Shown: positions 1 to 5,601, counted from the first letter of the stretch. The stretch is DNA of 64,000 nucleotides from an uncultured Gemmatimonadales bacterium (GCA_963793305.1 CAWBZV010000003.1:448001-512000); one strand, 5' to 3'. Translations and numbers: made by a program. Notes: generated by a model not told the origin, from the sequence alone.

Positions 1-471
1 CATTCGACTGGACACACCGAAGTCGCCGAGATCGAGGATGCGTACAAGCTCCTGACGCCGCTCCTGGGCGTCGGAGGCGCCAGTCTCGTATTCGCGCTGG
101 CGCTCCTCGCCTCCGGGCAGAACTCGACGTTGACGGGGACGCTCGCCGGGCAGATCGTGATGGAGGGGTTTCTCGACGTCAGGCTCCGGCCCTGGTTGCG
201 GCGGCTCATCACGCGTGGGCTGGCGATCGTGCCGGCCGTCATCGTGACCGCGCTCTATGGCCAGCACGGGACGGCGAGCTTGCTCGTGTTGAGTCAGGTC
301 GTGCTCAGTCTCCAGCTCTCGTTCGCCGTCGTCCCCCTGGTGCAGTTCACGTCGAGCCGGGCGATGATGGGGGAGTTCGTCAACCGGCGATGGCTGATCG
401 TGCTCGCGTGGGTCGCTACGATTCTCATTGCGGGCCTGAACTTGTGGCTGCTGGTGCTTTCGTTCAGATGA
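1..471 (+). CDS. mntH: Nramp family Mn2+/Fe2+ transporter, C-terminal part (5' truncated by window)
   Basis: Frame 1 open from base 1; [29 protein letters not shown] and SQVVLSLQL are Nramp motifs. Confidence 0.93.
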
Positions 472-1133
472 CAGCGTATACGGAGTCCGTCGAGAACTGC
501 CTCAAGGCGGTCTACGAGCTCGAGCGCTCGGGGCGCGAGAGCGTCTCGACGACCGATCTCGCCAACCGCCTCGGGATCGCGCCGCCGTCGGTGACGGGTA
601 TGATGCGCCGGCTCGCCGACTCGGGTCTGATTAAGTATGAACCATACCATGGCGCTCGATTGACCAACGAAGGGCAGCGGGTTGCGCTGCGTACCTTGAG
701 GCGCCATCGCATTATCGAGACGTACTTGGCGCGTGCGCTGGGCCTGTCCTGGGACCTCGTGCACGAGGAGGCCGAGCGGTTGGAGCACGCGGCGTCGGAT
801 GCATTGATCGATCGGATGGCAATGGTGCTTGGGCACCCGACGGTGGATCCGCACGGCGCGCCGATTCCGACGGCCGAGGGCGCGATCGATGAGCGCATGC
901 TGACGCCGCTCACCGAGCTCGATGTCGGCGATCGGGCGCGCATCGTCTCCGTGTACGACGAGGATCCCGATCGGCTGCGCTACCTGGGCCAACTCGGGCT
1001 CGTGCCCGGCGTCGTCGTGACGCTCGTGAGCCGTCAGCCCTACGGCGGGCCGCTCTCGCTGGGACTCGGCGATGCGGTCCGCGATATCGGGCCCGCGCTC
1101 GGCGCTTGTGTGTTCGCGGAGCGGCTCGGATGA
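468..1133 (+). CDS. mntR: DtxR/MntR family metal-dependent repressor with C-terminal FeoA-like domain
   Basis: ENCLKAVY...[35 protein letters not shown] overlap with mntH stop. Confidence 0.9.
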
Positions 1134-3636
1134 GCGAGACGCCACTCATGCAGCAGTATCGGGAGATCAAGGCGCGGCATCAGGACGCGATCCTGTTCTT
1201 TCGCATGGGCGATTTCTTCGAGATGTTCTACGAGGACGCCGAGGTTGGCTCGCGGGTCCTGGGTCTCACGCTGACGGCACGCAACAATGGCGGTGCGGCG
1301 GCGGTCCCTCTGGCCGGCGTCCCCGCCAAGGCGGTCAGCGAGTACGTCAAGCGACTCGTCCGCAAGGGCTTTCGTGTGGCGATCTGCGAGCAGGTCGAAG
1401 ATCCCAAGTACGCGAAGGGTCCTGTTCGGCGCGAGGTCATCGAGACGGTCACGCCCGGCGCCGCGCTCGCCGACGATCTCCTCGACGGGGCTCGCAATAA
1501 TTTTCTCTGCGCGCTGCATGGCACTGGTCTCGCGGCGGTCCGAATGTCTCGACGGGCGAATTCCGTCTCGCCACCGCCCACGTATCCGACGCCGCGGCTC
1601 TCGTCGCTCGCTACGCCCCACGTGAGATCCTGATTGCGCGCGGCGCCACGGTCGGCGTGCCGATCGATGGCGTGCTCGTGACAGAGCGCGAGCCGTGGGA
1701 GTTCGACACGGCGAGTGGCGCCGAAGCGTTAGCCCGGCGTTTTGGCGTTCAGTCGCTCGAGGGATTCGGCGTTCAGTCGTCCGACGCACCTGCCGTAGCG
1801 GCAGCGGGCGCATTGTTGGAGTACCTGCGCGAGCTTCAGCCGGGCGGGCTCCCGCACTTGGCGCGGCCGGTCATCGAACGTCCTGGTGGCTCGGTGCCCC
1901 TCGACGAAATGACGCGCCGGAATCTCGAGCTCGTCGAGTCGTTGCGTGGTGAGGCCGCGGGCACGTTGCTCGACGTCCTCGATCGGACATCGACGCCGAT
2001 GGGCGCGCGGCTTTTGCGCCAGTGGATTCTGGCGCCGCTTTCGGATCGCGTCGCGATCAACGCGCGGCTCGATCGCGTCGAGGCGTTGGCCAACGACTCA
2101 TTGGCCCGTGCGGCGTTGCGTGACGCGCTCGATGGGGTGCGCGACGTCGAGCGCCTCGCCGGCAAGGTCGCCGCTGCCCGGGCGACACCCCGCGAGCTTC
2201 GCTCGCTCGGCGACTCGCTGGCGCGCCTACCCGACGTTAGCGCGGCGGCGGCGCGCGTGGGTCTCGCCGAGCCCTGGGACACGTGCGACGATCTCGCCGC
2301 CGCGATCACTCGAGCGCTCGTCGAGCGGCCGCCGATCGCGATCGGTGATGAGCCGACGATTGAGATCGGTGTCGATGCCGGCGTCGACGAGCTGCGTGTG
2401 CTCCGTGACGGAGGGAAGGACGCGATCGCCGAGATTCAGGCGGCCGAGCGTACGCGGACGGGGATCGCGTCGCTCAAGGTCGGCTACAATCGGGTGTTCG
2501 GATACTTCATCGAGGTGACGAACGCCAACAAGGACGCGGTTCCGGCCGACTATCAGCGTCGCCAGACGCTGACGGGGGCCGAGCGGTATGTGACGCCGGC
2601 GCTCAAGGAGTACGAGGAGCGGGTGCTGACGGCGGCCGAGCGATTGGAGGCGCGCGAGCGGGAGTTATTCGAGGCGTTGCGCTCTGCTACCGGCACTGGG
2701 ATCGCTCGCCTTCAGCTTGTTGCTCGGCGAGTGGCCGAGCTCGACGTTGTGGCGACGTTCGCGGAGGTGGCGGAGCGCGAGCGGTTTGTTCGGCCGGTGG
2801 TGACGGACGACCTCGAGATCGACATCGTCGGCGGCCGGCATCCGGTCGTCGAGCGGATGATGCCGCGCGAGCAGTTCATCCCGAACGATGTTCGGCTCAG
2901 TACGGCCGAGCGGGTGATTATTCTCACGGGGCCGAACATGGCGGGCAAGTCGACGATCCTGCGCCAGGTCGGACTCATCGTATTGTTGGCCCAGGCCGGC
3001 AGCTTCGTACCCGCCGCGCGCGCGACGATCGGCATCGTCGACCGGCTCTTCACGCGCGTCGGCGCGAGCGACAATCTCGTGCGCGGGCAGTCGACGTTTA
3101 TGGTCGAGATGGCGGAGACGAGCGCCATTTTGCACACGGCCACCGCGCGCAGCCTCGTGTTGCTCGACGAGATCGGCCGCGGGACGTTGACGTACGACGG
3201 CGTCTCCATTGCGTGGTCCGTCACCGAGCATCTGCACTCTCGGGTAGGCTGCAAGACTATTTTCGCCACGCACTACCACGAGCTGACGCAACTCGCCGAC
3301 GAGCTCCCGGCTCTCCGCAACTACAACGTGGCCGTCCGCGAAGTCGGCGATCGCATTTTGTTCTTGCACCGGATGCAACCGGGCGGCGCCGATCGCTCCT
3401 ACGGAATCGAAGTCGGCCGCCTCGCCGGCCTCCCGGACGCCGTCATCACTCGCGCTCGCGAAGTGTTGCGGCGCCTCGAAAGCGAACAGCTCGTCGCGTC
3501 ACGCCCTGTCGAGCAGCTCGCACTTTTTGCTCCCGAGCCTCACGCCGCCGTCAAACGCTTAGCAGCGCTCAATCCCGATGATATGACGCCGTTGCAAGCA
3601 CTGACTTTGTTATCTGAGCTCAAAGGGCTCGTTTAA
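1130..3636 (+). CDS. mutS: DNA mismatch repair protein MutS (frameshifted near 1540-1630)
   Basis: TPLMQQY, FRMGDFFEMF, Walker A GPNMAGKST, STFMVEM, DEIGRGT, FATHYHEL, C-terminal QLALF clamp motif; split over ORFs 1106-1633 and 1657-3636. Confidence 0.95.
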
Positions 3637-3772
3637 AATCTCACCGCCGAGATTTACTCGCTAGCGCGCAACGCGCGGCGCTTTTTATATTGCCGGTCCG
3701 CTGAACCAGCGTGTGGCCGTTTTCGAATCACCGTGTCGCAGCACCCAGTTGGCACCAAACACGCCGCGTGTG

Positions 3773-3858
3773 GCCCGCGTGGTGGAACTGGTAGACACGG
3801 TCGATTCGCAATCGACTGACCCGCAAGGGTCGTGTGGGTTCAAATCCCGCCGCGGGCA
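3773..3858 (+). tRNA. Class II tRNA with Leu-type body but anticodon CGC (would read Ala GCG)
   Basis: Acceptor GCCCGCG/CGCGGGC + A73; D-arm GTGGAACTGGTAGACAC; anticodon arm GTCGA-TTCGCAA-TCGAC (CGC at 3807-3809); variable stem GACCC-GCAA-GGGTC; T-arm GTGGG-TTCAAAT-CCCGC; CCA not encoded. Confidence 0.88.
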
Positions 3859-3888
3859 CACGCTGGTTGACACGTACGCTTTTGCACG

Positions 3889-3917
3889 TTGACGGTCGGA
3901 CGCACTATTTCTAGATT
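3889..3917 (+). promoter_or_regulatory. Sigma70-type promoter
   Basis: TTGACG (3889-3894), 17-nt spacer, TAGATT (3912-3917). Confidence 0.6.
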
Positions 3918-3923
3918 TACTAC

Positions 3924-3997
3924 GACCCTTGCGGGCGAAGTGTCCGCCAGTTCCAGACACAGAAGTGACCCCGGGTGATTGCGACACCCGGGGTTTT
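3924..3997 (+). ncRNA. Candidate ~75-nt small RNA
   Basis: Bounded by the promoter above and the terminator below; internal hairpin GCGGGC-GAAGT-GTCCGC; no plausible ORF. Confidence 0.45.
3969..3997 (+). terminator. Rho-independent terminator
   Basis: CCCCGGGTG-ATTGCGA-CACCCGGGG followed by TTTT. Confidence 0.75.
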
Positions 3998-4005
3998 CTG
4001 TTGCG

Positions 4006-4704
4006 CTACATGGTCGTCGCCGGCTGATCCGGCATCAGGAATCGAAATTCCTGCCGCACCCACTGCCGCACGAGCCTCCCGCCGAGCTCCGCGGGCACGA
4101 AGCGCATGTGAGGGAGCGCCGAGCGGAGTGATTGCTCGAAGGCCGGGTGCGAGGAGTGGATCACGCGGAGACTGGTGCTGTCCGCGCCGCCCGTCGTGTC
4201 GACGACGAATTCGACGGTCAGCGACCCCTCGATGTGATTCTCCATGAGATACGACGGATACTCCGGCGCCGCACTCGTGGGATCCCGTTGCACCTCGCGG
4301 TCGACCTCGGCGTCGACATAGACCTTGCCACTCGGCAGCGCGTCGATGTCGGGAAGGTCGACCGTAGGCGCCGCGTCGCCCTTGCGCCCAAGGCCGATGC
4401 CTTGGCGGTTGTCGCCGGCGACGTTGAGCCCGGTGCCTTTGGTGGCCTTTGACCGGTCCCCAGACCCATTGGCATTGCTCGGCGCCCATTTGACGCCAGC
4501 GGTATCGAGCGACTTCCCTGTGGGAATCGTCGGAGCCAGATAGGTGACGATGCGCTCCTCGTCACTCTTCTTATCCGCCACTTTCGGCCAATACGCGGCA
4601 CCGGACGCGATGAAAAAGACGACAGCGGAAGCCGCTAATCCCACCGTCACCGACGGTACCGAACACAGACTCGCACTCTGTGGTGCCACGAGGTGGCGCA
4701 GCAT
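4006..4704 (-). CDS. TonB family energy transducer (TonB C-terminal domain)
   Basis: N-terminal TM segment, linker, PEYPSYL...EGSLTVEFVVDTTG...FEQS...RFVPAELGGRLVRQWVRQEFRF. Confidence 0.8.
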   Translation of the reverse strand: MLRHLVAPQSASLCSVPSVTVGLAASAVVFFIASGAAYWPKVADKKSDEERIVTYLAPTIPTGKSLDTAGVKWAPSNANGSGDRSKATKGTGLNVAGDNRQGIGLGRKGDAAPTVDLPDIDALPSGKVYVDAEVDREVQRDPTSAAPEYPSYLMENHIEGSLTVEFVVDTTGGADSTSLRVIHSSHPAFEQSLRSALPHMRFVPAELGGRLVRQWVRQEFRFLMPDQPATTM

Positions 4705-4848: not shown

Positions 4849-5601
4849 TCACTTATCATGCCCAGTCAAGATGGACTCGAACAATTCGAGCGCGCGCGGG
4901 TCACCGGATTGGCCCAGCCAGAACATGGCCTTACGGCGAAGCTCCGGGTCGTGATTATTTTTGGCCACATCGATCAAAATCGGTACACCTTCCTCGCGCG
5001 GCCGCTGCGACAGCGCGAAGATCGCCGACTCGCGGACCTCGCGATTGACGCCGTTATCGGTCACCAGTGAATCGAGTGCCCCCGTCGCGTTGGCGGCGGC
5101 CTGACCGAGCCAAAAGACCGCATTCTTTCGCGTCTCCGTCGGCTTCGCGTCGTCACGCGCGATCGCGATCAAACGTGGCCAGATTCGGACCTGGTCGGAG
5201 CTATCGGCAAGAGTTGCCGGAAAAATCGCGTCGTGGCCCACATGCGTCGATTTCCGCTCGGCCAGTCCGAGGAAATAATCCGCCGCCGCGCTCGCCGATA
5301 CGGCGCCCAGGTCGGTGATCGTGACGGCGCGCGGACGCCACCGTCCGCCGACATGGACGTGGATGCGCGTGATCTCGTGCGCGCTCACCCAGACGACGAC
5401 GCGCACGGGGCCGTCGTCGCAGTCGTCGTCGTACTCGACGTCGGTATCGTCATCGCCCGAGACATAGCGATGGTGCCCGGCGCACAGGCCCGGCCGGGCC
5501 GCGAAGGTCATCCGCACCTCGCCGTCGGGCGCGGCCGCAATGCGCGAGGCGAGGTCGGGCTGCTGCTGGGTCAATGCCCAGACGAGTGCCAAGGCGATCA
5601 T
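4849..5601 (-). CDS. Exported HEAT-repeat protein
   Basis: Signal-like N-terminus; repeats RKNAVFWLGQ, RESAIFALSQ, RRKAMFWLGQS. Confidence 0.8.
   Translation of the reverse strand: MIALALVWALTQQQPDLASRIAAAPDGEVRMTFAARPGLCAGHHRYVSGDDDTDVEYDDDCDDGPVRVVVWVSAHEITRIHVHVGGRWRPRAVTITDLGAVSASAAADYFLGLAERKSTHVGHDAIFPATLADSSDQVRIWPRLIAIARDDAKPTETRKNAVFWLGQAAANATGALDSLVTDNGVNREVRESAIFALSQRPREEGVPILIDVAKNNHDPELRRKAMFWLGQSGDPRALELFESILTGHDK

What the first reader, a model, noticed from the sequence alone, without database searches (positions are those of the whole stretch)
3773..3858. tRNA with Leu identity elements but an Ala (CGC) anticodon
Seen in sequence: long variable arm (U-GACCC-GCAA-GGGUC-G-U), A73, A15:U48, A20a, G13.A22, a C3-G70 pair (no G3:U70), and a clean 7-nt loop UU-CGC-AA. 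Established knowledge: those body features are bacterial LeuRS determinants, LeuRS largely ignores the anticodon, and AlaRS needs G3:U70. Inference: a Leu-charged tRNA reading GCG (natural mistranslator) or a non-ribosomal aminoacyl donor. Two substitutions would be needed to restore CAA/CAG, so the indel-type errors seen elsewhere do not easily explain it.
Basis: partly seen in the sequence, partly recalled or inferred. Interest (0 to 1): 0.85.

Follow-up and report, generated by a model that had tools for sequence, protein, structure and literature searches.

The report
Leucine-type tRNA with its own antisense RNA
A leucine-shaped transfer RNA that carries an alanine anticodon is real, has many relatives, and each copy is followed by a small RNA gene complementary to that copy, which suggests a mis-decoding tRNA kept silent by its own antisense RNA.

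Summary
Window 3773-3858 (+) is a strong tRNA (Rfam 54.2 bits) with a leucine-type body and the anticodon CGC. It is not a sequencing error or a pseudogene. The genome has three diverged paralogs, and related genomes carry more than 35 further loci with compensatory stem changes.

1. Every copy is followed by a promoter-like site, a short RNA antisense to that same tRNA, and a terminator. Across 24 loci an 18-pair tRNA:antisense helix is 95.5% paired, with 12 pairs showing compensatory changes. The 5' leader is also complementary to the D arm and the acceptor 3' strand.
2. The anticodon varies across the family (CGC, GCG, GCC, GGC, GAC, CUC, GUG), and the antisense RNA changes with it.

In this window the antisense RNA targets the variable arm and the D arm, not the anticodon. 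The module is patchy: verified in 18 of 401 sampled genomes of the phylum, and present or absent at the same mutS locus within the genus. GCG is this genome's most frequent codon.

My best reading is a mis-decoding Leu-tRNA silenced by cognate antisense RNA, in the manner of a toxin-antitoxin pair. Expression, charging and toxicity are all untested.

The parts
3686..3691 (+). Possible -10 element (TATATT) of the promoter that drives leader and tRNA. Tentative.
   Evidence: The sequence is. Similar hexamers (TATCAG, TATACT) lie at the same distance in the two paralogs. The promoter scan did not call it.
3704..3719 (+). Distal leader element complementary to the last 6 nt of the tRNA plus the first 10 nt of the trailer (3853-3868).
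   Evidence: Inverted repeat I3: 16 nt, 94% complementary. Paralogs and other subfamilies have different sequences that are also complementary. It is paired in the predicted precursor fold.
3733..3756 (+). Proximal leader motif (GUGUC...CCAG...CACC) complementary to the tRNA D arm.
   Evidence: RNAalifold pairs the leader with the D arm. On 24 loci 89.2% of cells are paired, against 28-46% when slid, and 3 of 14 pairs have compensatory changes.
3773..3858 (+). Class II, leucine-type tRNA with A73, C3-G70 and anticodon CGC at 3807-3809.
   Evidence: ARAGORN. Rfam tRNA at 54.2 bits. Family cloverleaf covariation. Closest to the canonical tRNA-Leu genes of the same genome.
3889..3917 (+). Sigma-70-type promoter-like site of the antisense small RNA (TTGACG, 17 nt, TAGATT).
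   Evidence: It is the only promoter-like site in 3550-4150; 0.1 are expected from shuffles. In 24 related loci TTG is kept in 23-24, the -10 A and final T in 24 of 24, and the spacer is an ungapped, variable 17 nt.
3922..3935 (+). Antisense box 1 of the small RNA, perfectly complementary to the variable arm (3820-3833).
   Evidence: Inverted repeat I5: 14 nt, 100%. This is the longest downstream complement for this tRNA.
3940..3955 (+). Antisense box 2 of the small RNA, complementary to the D arm (3783-3798).
   Evidence: Inverted repeat I4: 16 nt, 88%. A genus relative has a second small RNA with a 19-nt perfect anti-D-arm box at the orthologous locus.
3967..4001 (+). Intrinsic-terminator-like hairpin (11 pairs) and T run that end the small RNA. 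The whole small RNA spans about 3924-4001.
   Evidence: Terminator scan. An equivalent GC hairpin with a T run follows the antisense box in the aligned loci. In the predicted fold the first 7 nt of the antisense box are unpaired, the rest lies in a small hairpin, and the terminator hairpin follows.

Best explanation
The locus encodes a self-contained RNA module with three parts:
1. a supernumerary tRNA built on a tRNA-Leu body but carrying a non-Leu anticodon, here CGC;
2. a 5' leader complementary to the tRNA's D arm and to its acceptor 3' strand;
3. directly downstream, a small RNA gene with its own promoter and terminator, whose 5' part is antisense to that same tRNA copy.

Proposed mechanism. 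Bacterial LeuRS reads A73 and the tertiary core, not the anticodon. The free, folded tRNA would therefore be leucylated and would insert Leu at the codon its anticodon reads. Here that codon is GCG, the most frequent codon of this genome. The leader acts in cis within the precursor, and the small RNA acts in cis or in trans. Both pair with 14-25 nt of the tRNA and so unfold or mask it, possibly marking it for duplex-specific cleavage. This keeps mis-decoding off.

The module would then behave like an RNA-only toxin-antitoxin pair or a conditional-mistranslation switch, released when antisense RNA supply falls.

Shown: the tRNA, its Leu-type body, the antisense complementarity and its covariation, the promoter and terminator signatures, the variable anticodon and the patchy distribution.

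Inferred: transcription of both RNAs, leucylation, decoding, toxicity, and the trigger.
For: **tRNA and identity.**
- The tRNA is supported.
- Its body is closest to the genome's canonical tRNA-Leu genes, with the same D arm and A73.
- There is no G3:U70.
- The canonical Leu and Ala tRNA sets are complete, so this tRNA is an extra.
- There is only one LeuRS gene and no dedicated synthetase paralog.

**Antisense partner.**
- Of 62 ARAGORN calls in the genome, only the three Leu-like CGC tRNAs have a perfect complement of 14 nt or more within 300 nt downstream (20, 16 and 14 nt). The other 59 have at most 10.
- On 24 aligned loci the 18-pair tRNA:antisense helix is 95.5% paired. Twelve pairs have changes on both sides. 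The covariation score is 0.552 against 0.154 in shuffles (0 of 500 as high), and slid controls are 29-45% paired.
- RNAalifold, run freely, chooses this helix over the anticodon stem.
- The antisense box follows anticodon changes: CUC, GCC, GAC, GCG and GGC all have matching boxes.
- Predicted heterodimer gain is -16.5, -14.8 and -22.1 kcal/mol for the three cognate pairs. Non-cognate pairs give 0 to -10.0, and canonical Leu and Ala tRNAs give 0 to -10.2.

**Independent small RNA gene.** See the promoter signature and the terminators.

**Caged precursor.**
- Leader:D-arm and leader:trailer complementarity are seen.
- The 305-nt precursor is predicted to fold without a cloverleaf (-138.6 kcal/mol, z -4.77).

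**Codon targets.** GCG is the top codon at 6.33%. The codons read by the family's anticodons rank 1, 2, 3, 5, 7, 10 and 24 of 61.

**Accessory behaviour.**
- The module was verified in 18 of 401 sampled genomes of the phylum.
- The CGC search pattern matched in 4 of 6 genus genomes.
- It is present at the mutS-downstream locus in three genus genomes and absent there in three others.

**Loop architecture.** The anticodon loop keeps tRNA form although it could covary freely: U33 in 23 of 24, A38 in 24 of 24, and 7 nt in all.
Against: - There are no expression, aminoacylation or proteome data, and no RNA run could be listed.
- At least seven different anticodons occur. This could equally mean that decoding is not the selected function and the loop is only a pairing site.
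- Some members depart from canonical tRNA features, which may weaken ribosomal use. One has C33 and an 8-nt T loop (L031). Five have C at position 55 of the T loop. The 31-39 pair is broken in 7 of 24.
- In this window's own copy the antisense RNA does not cover the anticodon. It was therefore left out of the covariation alignment.
- The codon-rank argument is confounded by GC bias and by my search patterns, which required A37-A38 and excluded A35 or fixed C36.
- Mismatches in the helix do not clearly favour G.U over A.C: 13 G.U, 7 A.C and 13 other among 425 positions. Selection at the RNA level is therefore argued from promoters, terminators and retargeting, not from wobble pairs.
- No link to phages or mobile elements was found.
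Confidence: 0.45

Rival explanations
1. This is a regulatory RNA pair with no role in decoding. The tRNA-shaped RNA is a stable scaffold that acts as a decoy or sponge for the small RNA, or the reverse. The small RNA's real targets lie elsewhere, in mRNAs or in the anticodon loop of canonical tRNAs. The anticodon loop is simply a U-turn kissing loop.
For: The anticodon varies widely and the antisense box follows it. Some members have non-canonical C33, C55 or 31-39 mismatches. Subtypes use two short boxes against the variable-arm loop and the anticodon loop, like kissing complexes. The window's own small RNA targets the variable and D arms instead of the anticodon.
Against: The full Leu-type acceptor, D, T and discriminator features are kept with compensatory changes, although a mere decoy would not need them. 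The loop stays 7 nt, with U33 and A37-A38 nearly invariant. Covariation ties the small RNA to its own tRNA, not to a shared external target. Predicted binding to canonical tRNAs is weak.
Confidence: 0.25
2. The tRNA is a dedicated non-ribosomal leucyl donor, for example for an aminoacyl-transferase or for peptide or cell-envelope chemistry. The antisense RNA and leader keep it away from the ribosome.
For: It has a Leu-type body with a non-Leu anticodon and is supernumerary to the canonical set. The anticodon is masked by antisense RNA in most members.
Against: The three loci of this genome share no conserved neighbouring enzyme. Their neighbours are mutS and a TonB-like gene, a kinase and a radical SAM gene, and a peptidase and a PP2C phosphatase. 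A canonical Leu-tRNA could serve as donor. The antisense pairing would also unfold the D arm and core that LeuRS is thought to need (recalled knowledge).
Confidence: 0.1
3. This is a DNA-level feature. The downstream boxes are relics of inverted partial duplications of the tRNA gene, kept alike by gene conversion, or they are the arms of an invertible DNA switch. No antisense RNA function is involved.
For: The boxes are inverted repeats in the DNA. In one genus relative the repeat spans 23 nt from the D loop to the anticodon loop. The mismatch spectrum does not favour G.U.
Against: A promoter signature with conserved hexamers and a variable 17-nt spacer lies in front of every box, and a terminator follows it, all on the tRNA strand. 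The target region has switched to the variable arm, the D arm or two short boxes while complementarity to the own tRNA is kept. The repeat sequences are not conserved, as recombinase sites would be. No recombinase gene lies nearby.
Confidence: 0.07
4. The gene is a decaying pseudo-tRNA or an assembly or base-call error in a tRNA-Leu gene. Alternatively, GCG has been reassigned to Leu.
For: Only the anticodon mismatch itself.
Against: Three paralogs and more than 35 related loci keep non-Leu anticodons with compensatory stem changes. Two canonical tRNA-Ala(CGC) genes are present. GCG is the most frequent codon. Proteins translated under the standard table give strong family matches, such as MutS domain V at 278 bits.
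Confidence: 0.03

Closest known systems
tRNA-ProX of Streptomyces and Kitasatospora (tRNA-Pro bodies with Ala, Asn or Thr anticodons)
   Same: Both are bacterial, genome-encoded tRNAs whose body identity and anticodon disagree. Both are supernumerary to the normal set and vary in anticodon within the family. (I read section 17 of PMC11415595.)
   Different: tRNA-ProX is co-encoded with a dedicated synthetase, ProRSx, and has A33 and A34. Here there is a Leu body, a normal U33, only one LeuRS and no synthetase neighbour. There is also a dedicated antisense RNA, which is not described for tRNA-ProX in the section I read.
Nematode-specific V-arm tRNAs (nev-tRNAs: Gly CCC and Ile UAU with a Leu-type variable arm)
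   Same: Both have a leucine-type long variable arm combined with a non-Leu anticodon. The nev-tRNAs are misacylated with Leu in vitro. (I saw only the start of the abstract of PMC4300185 in the listing.)
   Different: They are eukaryotic and nematode-specific. No antisense partner is mentioned in the abstract I saw. Any relation to this family could only be convergent.
RNA-antitoxin toxin-antitoxin systems: type I (antisense RNA against a toxin mRNA) and type VIII (RNA toxin with RNA antitoxin, such as SdsR/RyeA or CreT/CreA). Recalled; only review titles and abstract starts were seen.
   Same: Both have an adjacent gene pair in which one RNA is neutralised by base pairing or RNA-guided repression. 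Both are multi-copy and patchy in distribution, with copy-specific pairing.
   Different: No described toxin of these types is an aminoacylatable tRNA, to my knowledge. A search for 'mistranslating tRNA' together with 'antitoxin' found 0 papers. Here the two genes lie in tandem on one strand, not overlapping on opposite strands. Toxicity is untested.
3' external transcribed spacer of the glyW-cysT-leuZ tRNA operon acting as an sRNA sponge in E. coli (recalled, not read here)
   Same: In both, a functional base-pairing RNA lies in the trailer of a tRNA-Leu transcript.
   Different: That trailer binds unrelated small RNAs. Here the downstream RNA has its own promoter signature and pairs with the tRNA itself, with covariation.
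T-box riboswitch
   Same: Both are RNAs that read a tRNA anticodon by base pairing.
   Different: A T-box pairs with 3 nt of the anticodon plus the acceptor end, and it sits in an mRNA leader. Here 14-25 nt are paired, including stems, which would unfold the tRNA. No T-box or other Rfam family matched the leader or small RNA.

Membership tests
tRNA (Rfam RF00005) | Cloverleaf with conserved D and T loops that scores above the gathering threshold | tested here: met
   54.2 bits against a gathering score of 29, over the full model. ARAGORN calls it. The family cloverleaf is 98.5% paired, with 18 of 25 pairs compensatory.
Bacterial tRNA-Leu (class II) | Long variable arm, A73, and a Leu-type D arm (3-bp stem with G13.A22, A14, A15, G18-G19, extra nucleotide 20a) | tested here: met
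   Sequence. The D arm and discriminator are shared with the five canonical tRNA-Leu genes of the same genome and not with its Ser, Tyr or Ala tRNAs. The rule list itself is recalled knowledge.
Bacterial tRNA-Leu (class II) | Leucine anticodon (NAG or YAA) | tested here: not met
   The anticodon is CGC at 3807-3809. Family members have CGC, GCG, GCC, GGC, GAC, CUC and GUG.
Bacterial tRNA-Leu (class II) | Aminoacylation by LeuRS | not testable with these tools
   One bacterial-type LeuRS gene is present (859.8 bits). Charging needs a bench assay.
tRNA-Ala | G3:U70 pair in the acceptor stem and a short (class I) variable region | tested here: not met
   The pair is C3-G70 and the variable arm is long. 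The four canonical tRNA-Ala genes of the genome are 73-76 nt and 55-63% identical to the three paralogs.
Dedicated mistranslation pair of the tRNA-ProX/ProRSx kind | A synthetase paralog co-encoded with the odd tRNA | tested here: not met
   The neighbours of the three loci are unrelated to synthetases. There is only one LeuRS in the genome.
RNA-antitoxin toxin-antitoxin module (type I or VIII-like) | An adjacent antisense RNA gene specific to its partner | tested here: met
   Copy-specific complementarity with covariation. Own promoter and terminator signatures.
RNA-antitoxin toxin-antitoxin module (type I or VIII-like) | The toxin arrests growth, and a labile antitoxin relieves it | not testable with these tools
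   There are no expression or growth data, and no RNA run was listed.
T-box riboswitch or any other curated RNA family, for the leader and small RNA | A match to a curated covariance model | tested here: not met
   Only the tRNA model matched. At E up to 10 the other matches in 3600-4100 were far below their gathering scores.

The most novel reading that the evidence does not exclude
This is an RNA-only toxin-antitoxin or abortive-infection system. The toxin is an aminoacylatable mis-decoding tRNA: a Leu body with an anticodon for one of the most abundant codons of a GC-rich genome. The antitoxin is a dedicated antisense RNA that captures the anticodon loop and unfolds the tRNA. A leader acts as a second safety catch that cages the precursor. 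Loss of antisense transcription would release proteome-wide Leu misincorporation.
Probability: 0.3. Interest if true: 0.95.

Novelty: new variant of a known kind. Interest (0 to 1): 0.85.

Why it matters
Natural tRNAs whose body and anticodon disagree are rare, and their biology is unresolved. The only bacterial family in the review I read is tRNA-ProX. This finding adds a second bacterial family, built on tRNA-Leu, in Gemmatimonadota.

It also adds something I could not find in print. Each such tRNA has a dedicated antisense RNA gene, and the two co-evolve nucleotide for nucleotide.

If the tRNA decodes, this is a built-in on/off control for deliberate mistranslation, or an RNA toxin of a new kind. 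It would make testable how a cell can carry a tRNA that reads its most frequent codon wrongly. If the tRNA does not decode, it is still a new class of tRNA-shaped regulatory RNA with a cognate partner.

Either way the pair offers a natural design for switching a tRNA off by antisense RNA. It also warns genome annotators that these genes are labelled tRNA-Ala, tRNA-Arg, tRNA-Gly, tRNA-Val or tRNA-Glu by anticodon alone.

Tried and rejected
- **Expression.** The look-up of sequencing runs (kind rna) on 3640-4010 listed no RNA holder. Read laying was therefore not used. This is no evidence either way.
- **Rfam.** At gathering and at E up to 10, no family matched the leader or the small RNA.
- **Earlier findings.** Nothing was returned by place or by sequence.
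- **RNAduplex on full-length RNAs.** Uninformative: GC-rich terminator strands dominate, and shuffled controls reach similar energies. I replaced it with the cofold gain over monomers.
- **G.U versus A.C mismatches as a test of RNA-level selection.** Not decisive: 13 G.U against 7 A.C.
- **Viral contigs.** Twelve pattern matches gave only one tRNA-like sequence. Its acceptor 3' strand does not pair and it has no antisense box. No module was found on viral contigs.
- **Pattern matches that are not tRNAs.**
  - Of 119 loci from the global scan, 24 hold a long-arm tRNA(CGC).
  - Of 15 loci fetched after, 7 hold a tRNA.
  - Of the 29 new loci and 7 earlier no-tRNA loci examined, only 5 (all among the new loci) hold a tRNA.
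  - Two extra CGC-pattern matches in this genome (contigs C5 and C8) are not tRNAs.
- **Promoter of the leader and tRNA.** A sigma-54-like or ECF-like reading of the conserved leader motif did not fit the known spacings (my reading). I now read the motif as anti-D-arm.
- **Literature.** Six full-text searches found no description of a tRNA with a dedicated antisense RNA, nor of Leu-type tRNAs with non-Leu anticodons in Gemmatimonadota. Subscription journals are not covered.
- **Codon reassignment.** Considered and rejected; see the rival explanations.

Full report
**1. The observation**

ARAGORN finds one tRNA in the window, at 3773-3859 (+), with anticodon cgc. Rfam's tRNA model matches 3773-3858 over its full length at 54.2 bits against a gathering score of 29. 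It is the only family to reach its gathering score in the 64 kb.

- acceptor stem GCCCGCG/CGCGGGC, with C3-G70;
- A73;
- a D arm with a 3-bp stem, G13.A22 and the loop AACUGGUAG;
- anticodon stem GUCGA/UCGAC;
- loop UU-CGC-AA, with the anticodon at 3807-3809;
- a 5-bp variable arm with a GCAA loop;
- a normal T arm.

The window is contig C3:448001-512000 of a 5.72-Mb, 65% G+C assembly in 26 contigs.

**2. Not an error, and supernumerary**

ARAGORN makes 62 calls genome-wide. Three of them are 87-nt 'tRNA-Ala(cgc)' genes on C3, at 451773 (this one), 636248 and 709201c. The genome also has two ordinary 74-76-nt tRNA-Ala(CGC) genes, Ala(UGC), Ala(GGC) and all five Leu isoacceptors.

The three long copies are 78-84% identical to each other. 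They are closest to the canonical Leu tRNAs (63-78%), ahead of Ser (60-74%), Tyr (62-63%) and Ala (55-63%). They share the D arm and A73 with Leu.

There is one bacterial-type LeuRS gene (859.8 bits) and no second copy.

**3. Each copy is followed by an RNA antisense to itself**

Inverted-repeat searches gave the following.
- Copy 2: 16 nt of perfect complement between the tRNA (D-stem 3' strand, anticodon-stem 5' strand and loop) and a site 99 nt further on.
- Copy 3: 20 nt of perfect complement, at a site 107 nt further on.
- This window's copy: a 14-nt perfect complement to the variable arm (3820-3833 against 3922-3935), and a 16-nt, 88% complement to the D arm (3783-3798 against 3940-3955).

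As a genome-wide control I measured the longest perfect complement within 300 nt downstream of every ARAGORN call. The three copies score 20, 16 and 14 nt. The other 59 score at most 10, and the canonical Leu tRNAs score 6-9.

Between the tRNA and the antisense box lies the only sigma-70-like site in 3550-4150: TTGACG, 17 nt, TAGATT at 3889-3917. Shuffles predict 0.1 such sites. After the box comes a terminator-like hairpin at 3967-3995 with a T run.

**4. Relatives**

A pattern built from the D loop and the CGC loop matched in 4 of 41 genomes, counting the window's own genome. That is 4 of 6 in the genus and 0 of 35 in other genera of the family and order.

Of these, 24 hold a long-arm tRNA(cgc).
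- 19 are in records labelled Gemmatimonadota, Gemmatimonadales or Gemmatimonadaceae.
- 1 is in a MAG labelled Planctomycetales.
- 1 is in Paracoccaceae, 2 in Gammaproteobacteria and 1 in Dehalococcoidia.

The window's genome is therefore most likely a member of Gemmatimonadaceae. This is an inference from the near-identical loci.

In the Gemmatimonadota loci and the 'Planctomycetales' one, the longest downstream complement is 10-21 nt. It always lies 40-72 nt after the tRNA and covers the anticodon loop plus the 5' anticodon stem. Upstream controls give 6-10 nt, with one at 14. The four proteobacterial and Dehalococcoidia tRNAs have no such box.

**5. Covariation**

I aligned 24 modules, each with 100 nt of leader, the tRNA and 150 nt downstream. 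Two of the 26 non-redundant modules were left out:
- this window's own copy, because its small RNA pairs with other parts of the tRNA;
- L124, which has no upstream sequence.

For the 18-pair tRNA:antisense helix:
- 95.5% of 426 cells are standard pairs;
- 12 pairs have changes on both sides (85 cells);
- the covariation score is 0.552 against 0.154 in shuffles, with 0 of 500 shuffles as high;
- sliding the partner by 1-3 columns gives 29-45% paired.

On the same rows the cloverleaf is 98.5% paired, with 18 of 25 pairs compensatory. Both folds are therefore conserved, and they exclude each other in the anticodon arm.

RNAalifold, run freely on the alignment, chose the intermolecular-type helix over the anticodon stem.

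Caveat: the rows are related, and inverted DNA repeats would give the same counts.

**6. An independent small RNA gene**

In the 24 rows the -35 element reads TTG in 23-24. The -10 element has A at its second position and T at its last position in 24 of 24. The 17-nt spacer is ungapped and variable, with 8-15 of 24 rows sharing the commonest base per column. The antisense box starts 7-12 nt after the -10. A GC-rich hairpin with a T run follows.

The predicted folds of the three small RNAs of this genome end in a terminator hairpin. Part of each 5' antisense box is drawn into a weak upstream hairpin.

Some loci carry a second unit. One genus relative has two in tandem at the orthologous locus: a 23-nt anti-anticodon-arm box and a 19-nt anti-D-arm box. 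Paralog 3 has a second promoter-like site and a box of about 12 nt.

**7. The leader is antisense too**

A leader motif conserved across the family (GYGUC...CCAG...CCRCC) is complementary to the D arm. It is 89.2% paired on 24 rows, against 28-46% when slid. Only 3 of 14 pairs are compensatory, because the D arm hardly varies.

A more distal leader element pairs with the acceptor 3' strand and the first trailer bases. Here that is 3704-3719 with 3853-3868, at 15 of 16 positions. Other copies and subfamilies use different but matching sequences.

The 305-nt stretch 3696-4000 is predicted to fold at -138.6 kcal/mol (z -4.77). The fold has no cloverleaf and keeps only the variable-arm and T-arm hairpins. 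This is a prediction only.

**8. The anticodon varies and the antisense follows**

- The ortholog at the same mutS-downstream locus in one genus relative has CUC, with a matching antisense box. Another genus locus has GGC with C33.
- In a sample of 401 genomes of the phylum, a pattern fixing C36 matched in 10 genomes. Verified members have GCC (3), GAC (1), CUC (1) and CGC, each with a cognate box.
- A pattern excluding A35 found GCG-type members, each with a cognate TTCGCAG-type box. One GCG member (L216) and a GUG member (L170) belong to a subtype with two short boxes against the variable-arm loop and the anticodon loop.
- Two Leu-like tRNAs with Pro anticodons, UGG and CGG, have no antisense box.

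In all I verified Leu-like tRNAs with non-Leu anticodons in 18 of the 401 sampled genomes, and 16 of those have an antisense partner. These counts are lower bounds, because they depend on an exact D-loop word and on A37-A38. The tally of raw pattern matches (40 of 401) includes one genome flagged unpublished.

**9. Accessory behaviour**

At the mutS-downstream locus the module is present in this genome and in two genus relatives. It is absent within 1.5 kb of the mutS end in three others. In one of these, a different open reading frame (not scanned against Pfam) follows mutS directly.

The gene neighbours of the three copies in this genome have nothing in common:
- mutS and a TonB-C-domain gene;
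- a Ser/Thr kinase and a radical SAM gene;
- an S9 peptidase and a PP2C phosphatase.

**10. Codon context and pairing energies**

In 1,462 long ORFs (813,229 codons) GCG is the most frequent codon at 6.33%. The codons read by the family's anticodons rank as follows in this genome:

| Codon | Rank of 61 |
|---|---|
| GCG | 1 |
| GGC | 2 |
| GCC | 3 |
| GTC | 5 |
| CGC | 7 |
| GAG | 10 |
| CAC | 24 |

GC bias and my search patterns confound this result.

The predicted gain on heterodimer formation is -16.5, -14.8 and -22.1 kcal/mol for the three cognate pairs. Non-cognate pairs give 0 to -10.0, and canonical Leu and Ala tRNAs give 0 to -10.2. The small RNA of this window is the least specific, because its second box targets the conserved D arm.

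**11. Interpretation**

Established knowledge, recalled here: bacterial LeuRS relies on A73 and the tertiary core, not the anticodon. The review passage seen says as much for Ala, Ser and, to a lesser extent, Leu. A free copy of this tRNA should therefore carry Leu to GCG codons.

A cell that keeps such genes surrounds each with RNA complementary to the tRNA, both in the precursor and from a separate strong-looking promoter. The simplest reading is that the folded tRNA is harmful or conditionally useful, and that the antisense RNAs hold it off. This is the logic of a toxin-antitoxin pair or a mistranslation switch. I put the full chain at 0.45 and the reality of the tRNA:antisense pairing at about 0.9.

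The main rival, at 0.25, is a tRNA-shaped regulatory RNA with no decoding role. The variable anticodon and some non-canonical members favour that rival.

**12. What is known**

The review I read describes tRNA-ProX with ProRSx as the bacterial case of encoded mistranslating tRNAs (section 17). The nev-tRNAs of nematodes are the Leu-type analogue in eukaryotes (abstract start only).

Six full-text searches found no tRNA with a dedicated antisense RNA. Rfam has no family for the leader or the small RNA.

I file the locus as a new variant of known kinds (natural identity-mismatched tRNAs and antisense-RNA antidotes). The combination may prove to be a kind of its own.

Noticed in passing
L079 (Paracoccaceae MAG), L084 and L123 (Gammaproteobacteria MAGs), L114 (Dehalococcoidia MAG): Long-arm, Leu-like tRNAs (88-98 nt) with a CGC anticodon also occur outside Gemmatimonadota. 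They have much longer variable arms and no downstream antisense box. They may be independent cases of tRNAs whose identity and anticodon disagree.
   Followed up: partly
L218 (G032:C3) and L177 (G007:C2): These are Leu-like long-arm tRNAs with proline anticodons, UGG and CGG, in genomes of the same phylum. They have no antisense partner.
   Followed up: partly
L186, about 355-439 (-), a viral contig: This is a Leu-like CGC tRNA whose acceptor 3' strand does not pair with its 5' strand. A terminator follows directly. It looks like a tRNA gene cut at a prophage boundary.
   Followed up: partly
L044, L062, L109, L124, L130 (T loops): Five family members have UCCGAAU in place of UUCGAAU in the T loop. 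That puts C at position 55, which is almost always U (pseudouridine) in elongator tRNAs.
   Followed up: no
L001 about 5200-5240 (G000:C3, downstream of paralog 2): A near-consensus promoter (TTGACT, 17 nt, TACAAT) sits in front of a radical SAM/HHH gene. It is conserved in the orthologous loci of three genus relatives. This shows that sigma-70-type promoters of this form are used in the genus.
   Followed up: no
G000 contigs C3:412684, C3:616291, C12:141242, C12:205543, C14:171327, C5:831649: These are six odd ARAGORN calls of 79-100 nt, including 'Ala ggc', 'Arg acg', 'Thr cgt', 'Gly acc' and an undetermined one. They look like false positives in GC-rich coding sequence: they lack the conserved D- and T-loop words.
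   Followed up: partly
L163 (G121:C82): This is a 5' half of a Leu-like CGC tRNA that breaks off after the anticodon loop. A CTTGCGAAG box lies nearby. It is possibly a decayed module.
   Followed up: no
window 3-1133 (+): The open reading frame is open at the window's 5' end and combines iron-dependent repressor domains with a C-terminal FeoA domain. It was not examined further.
   Followed up: no
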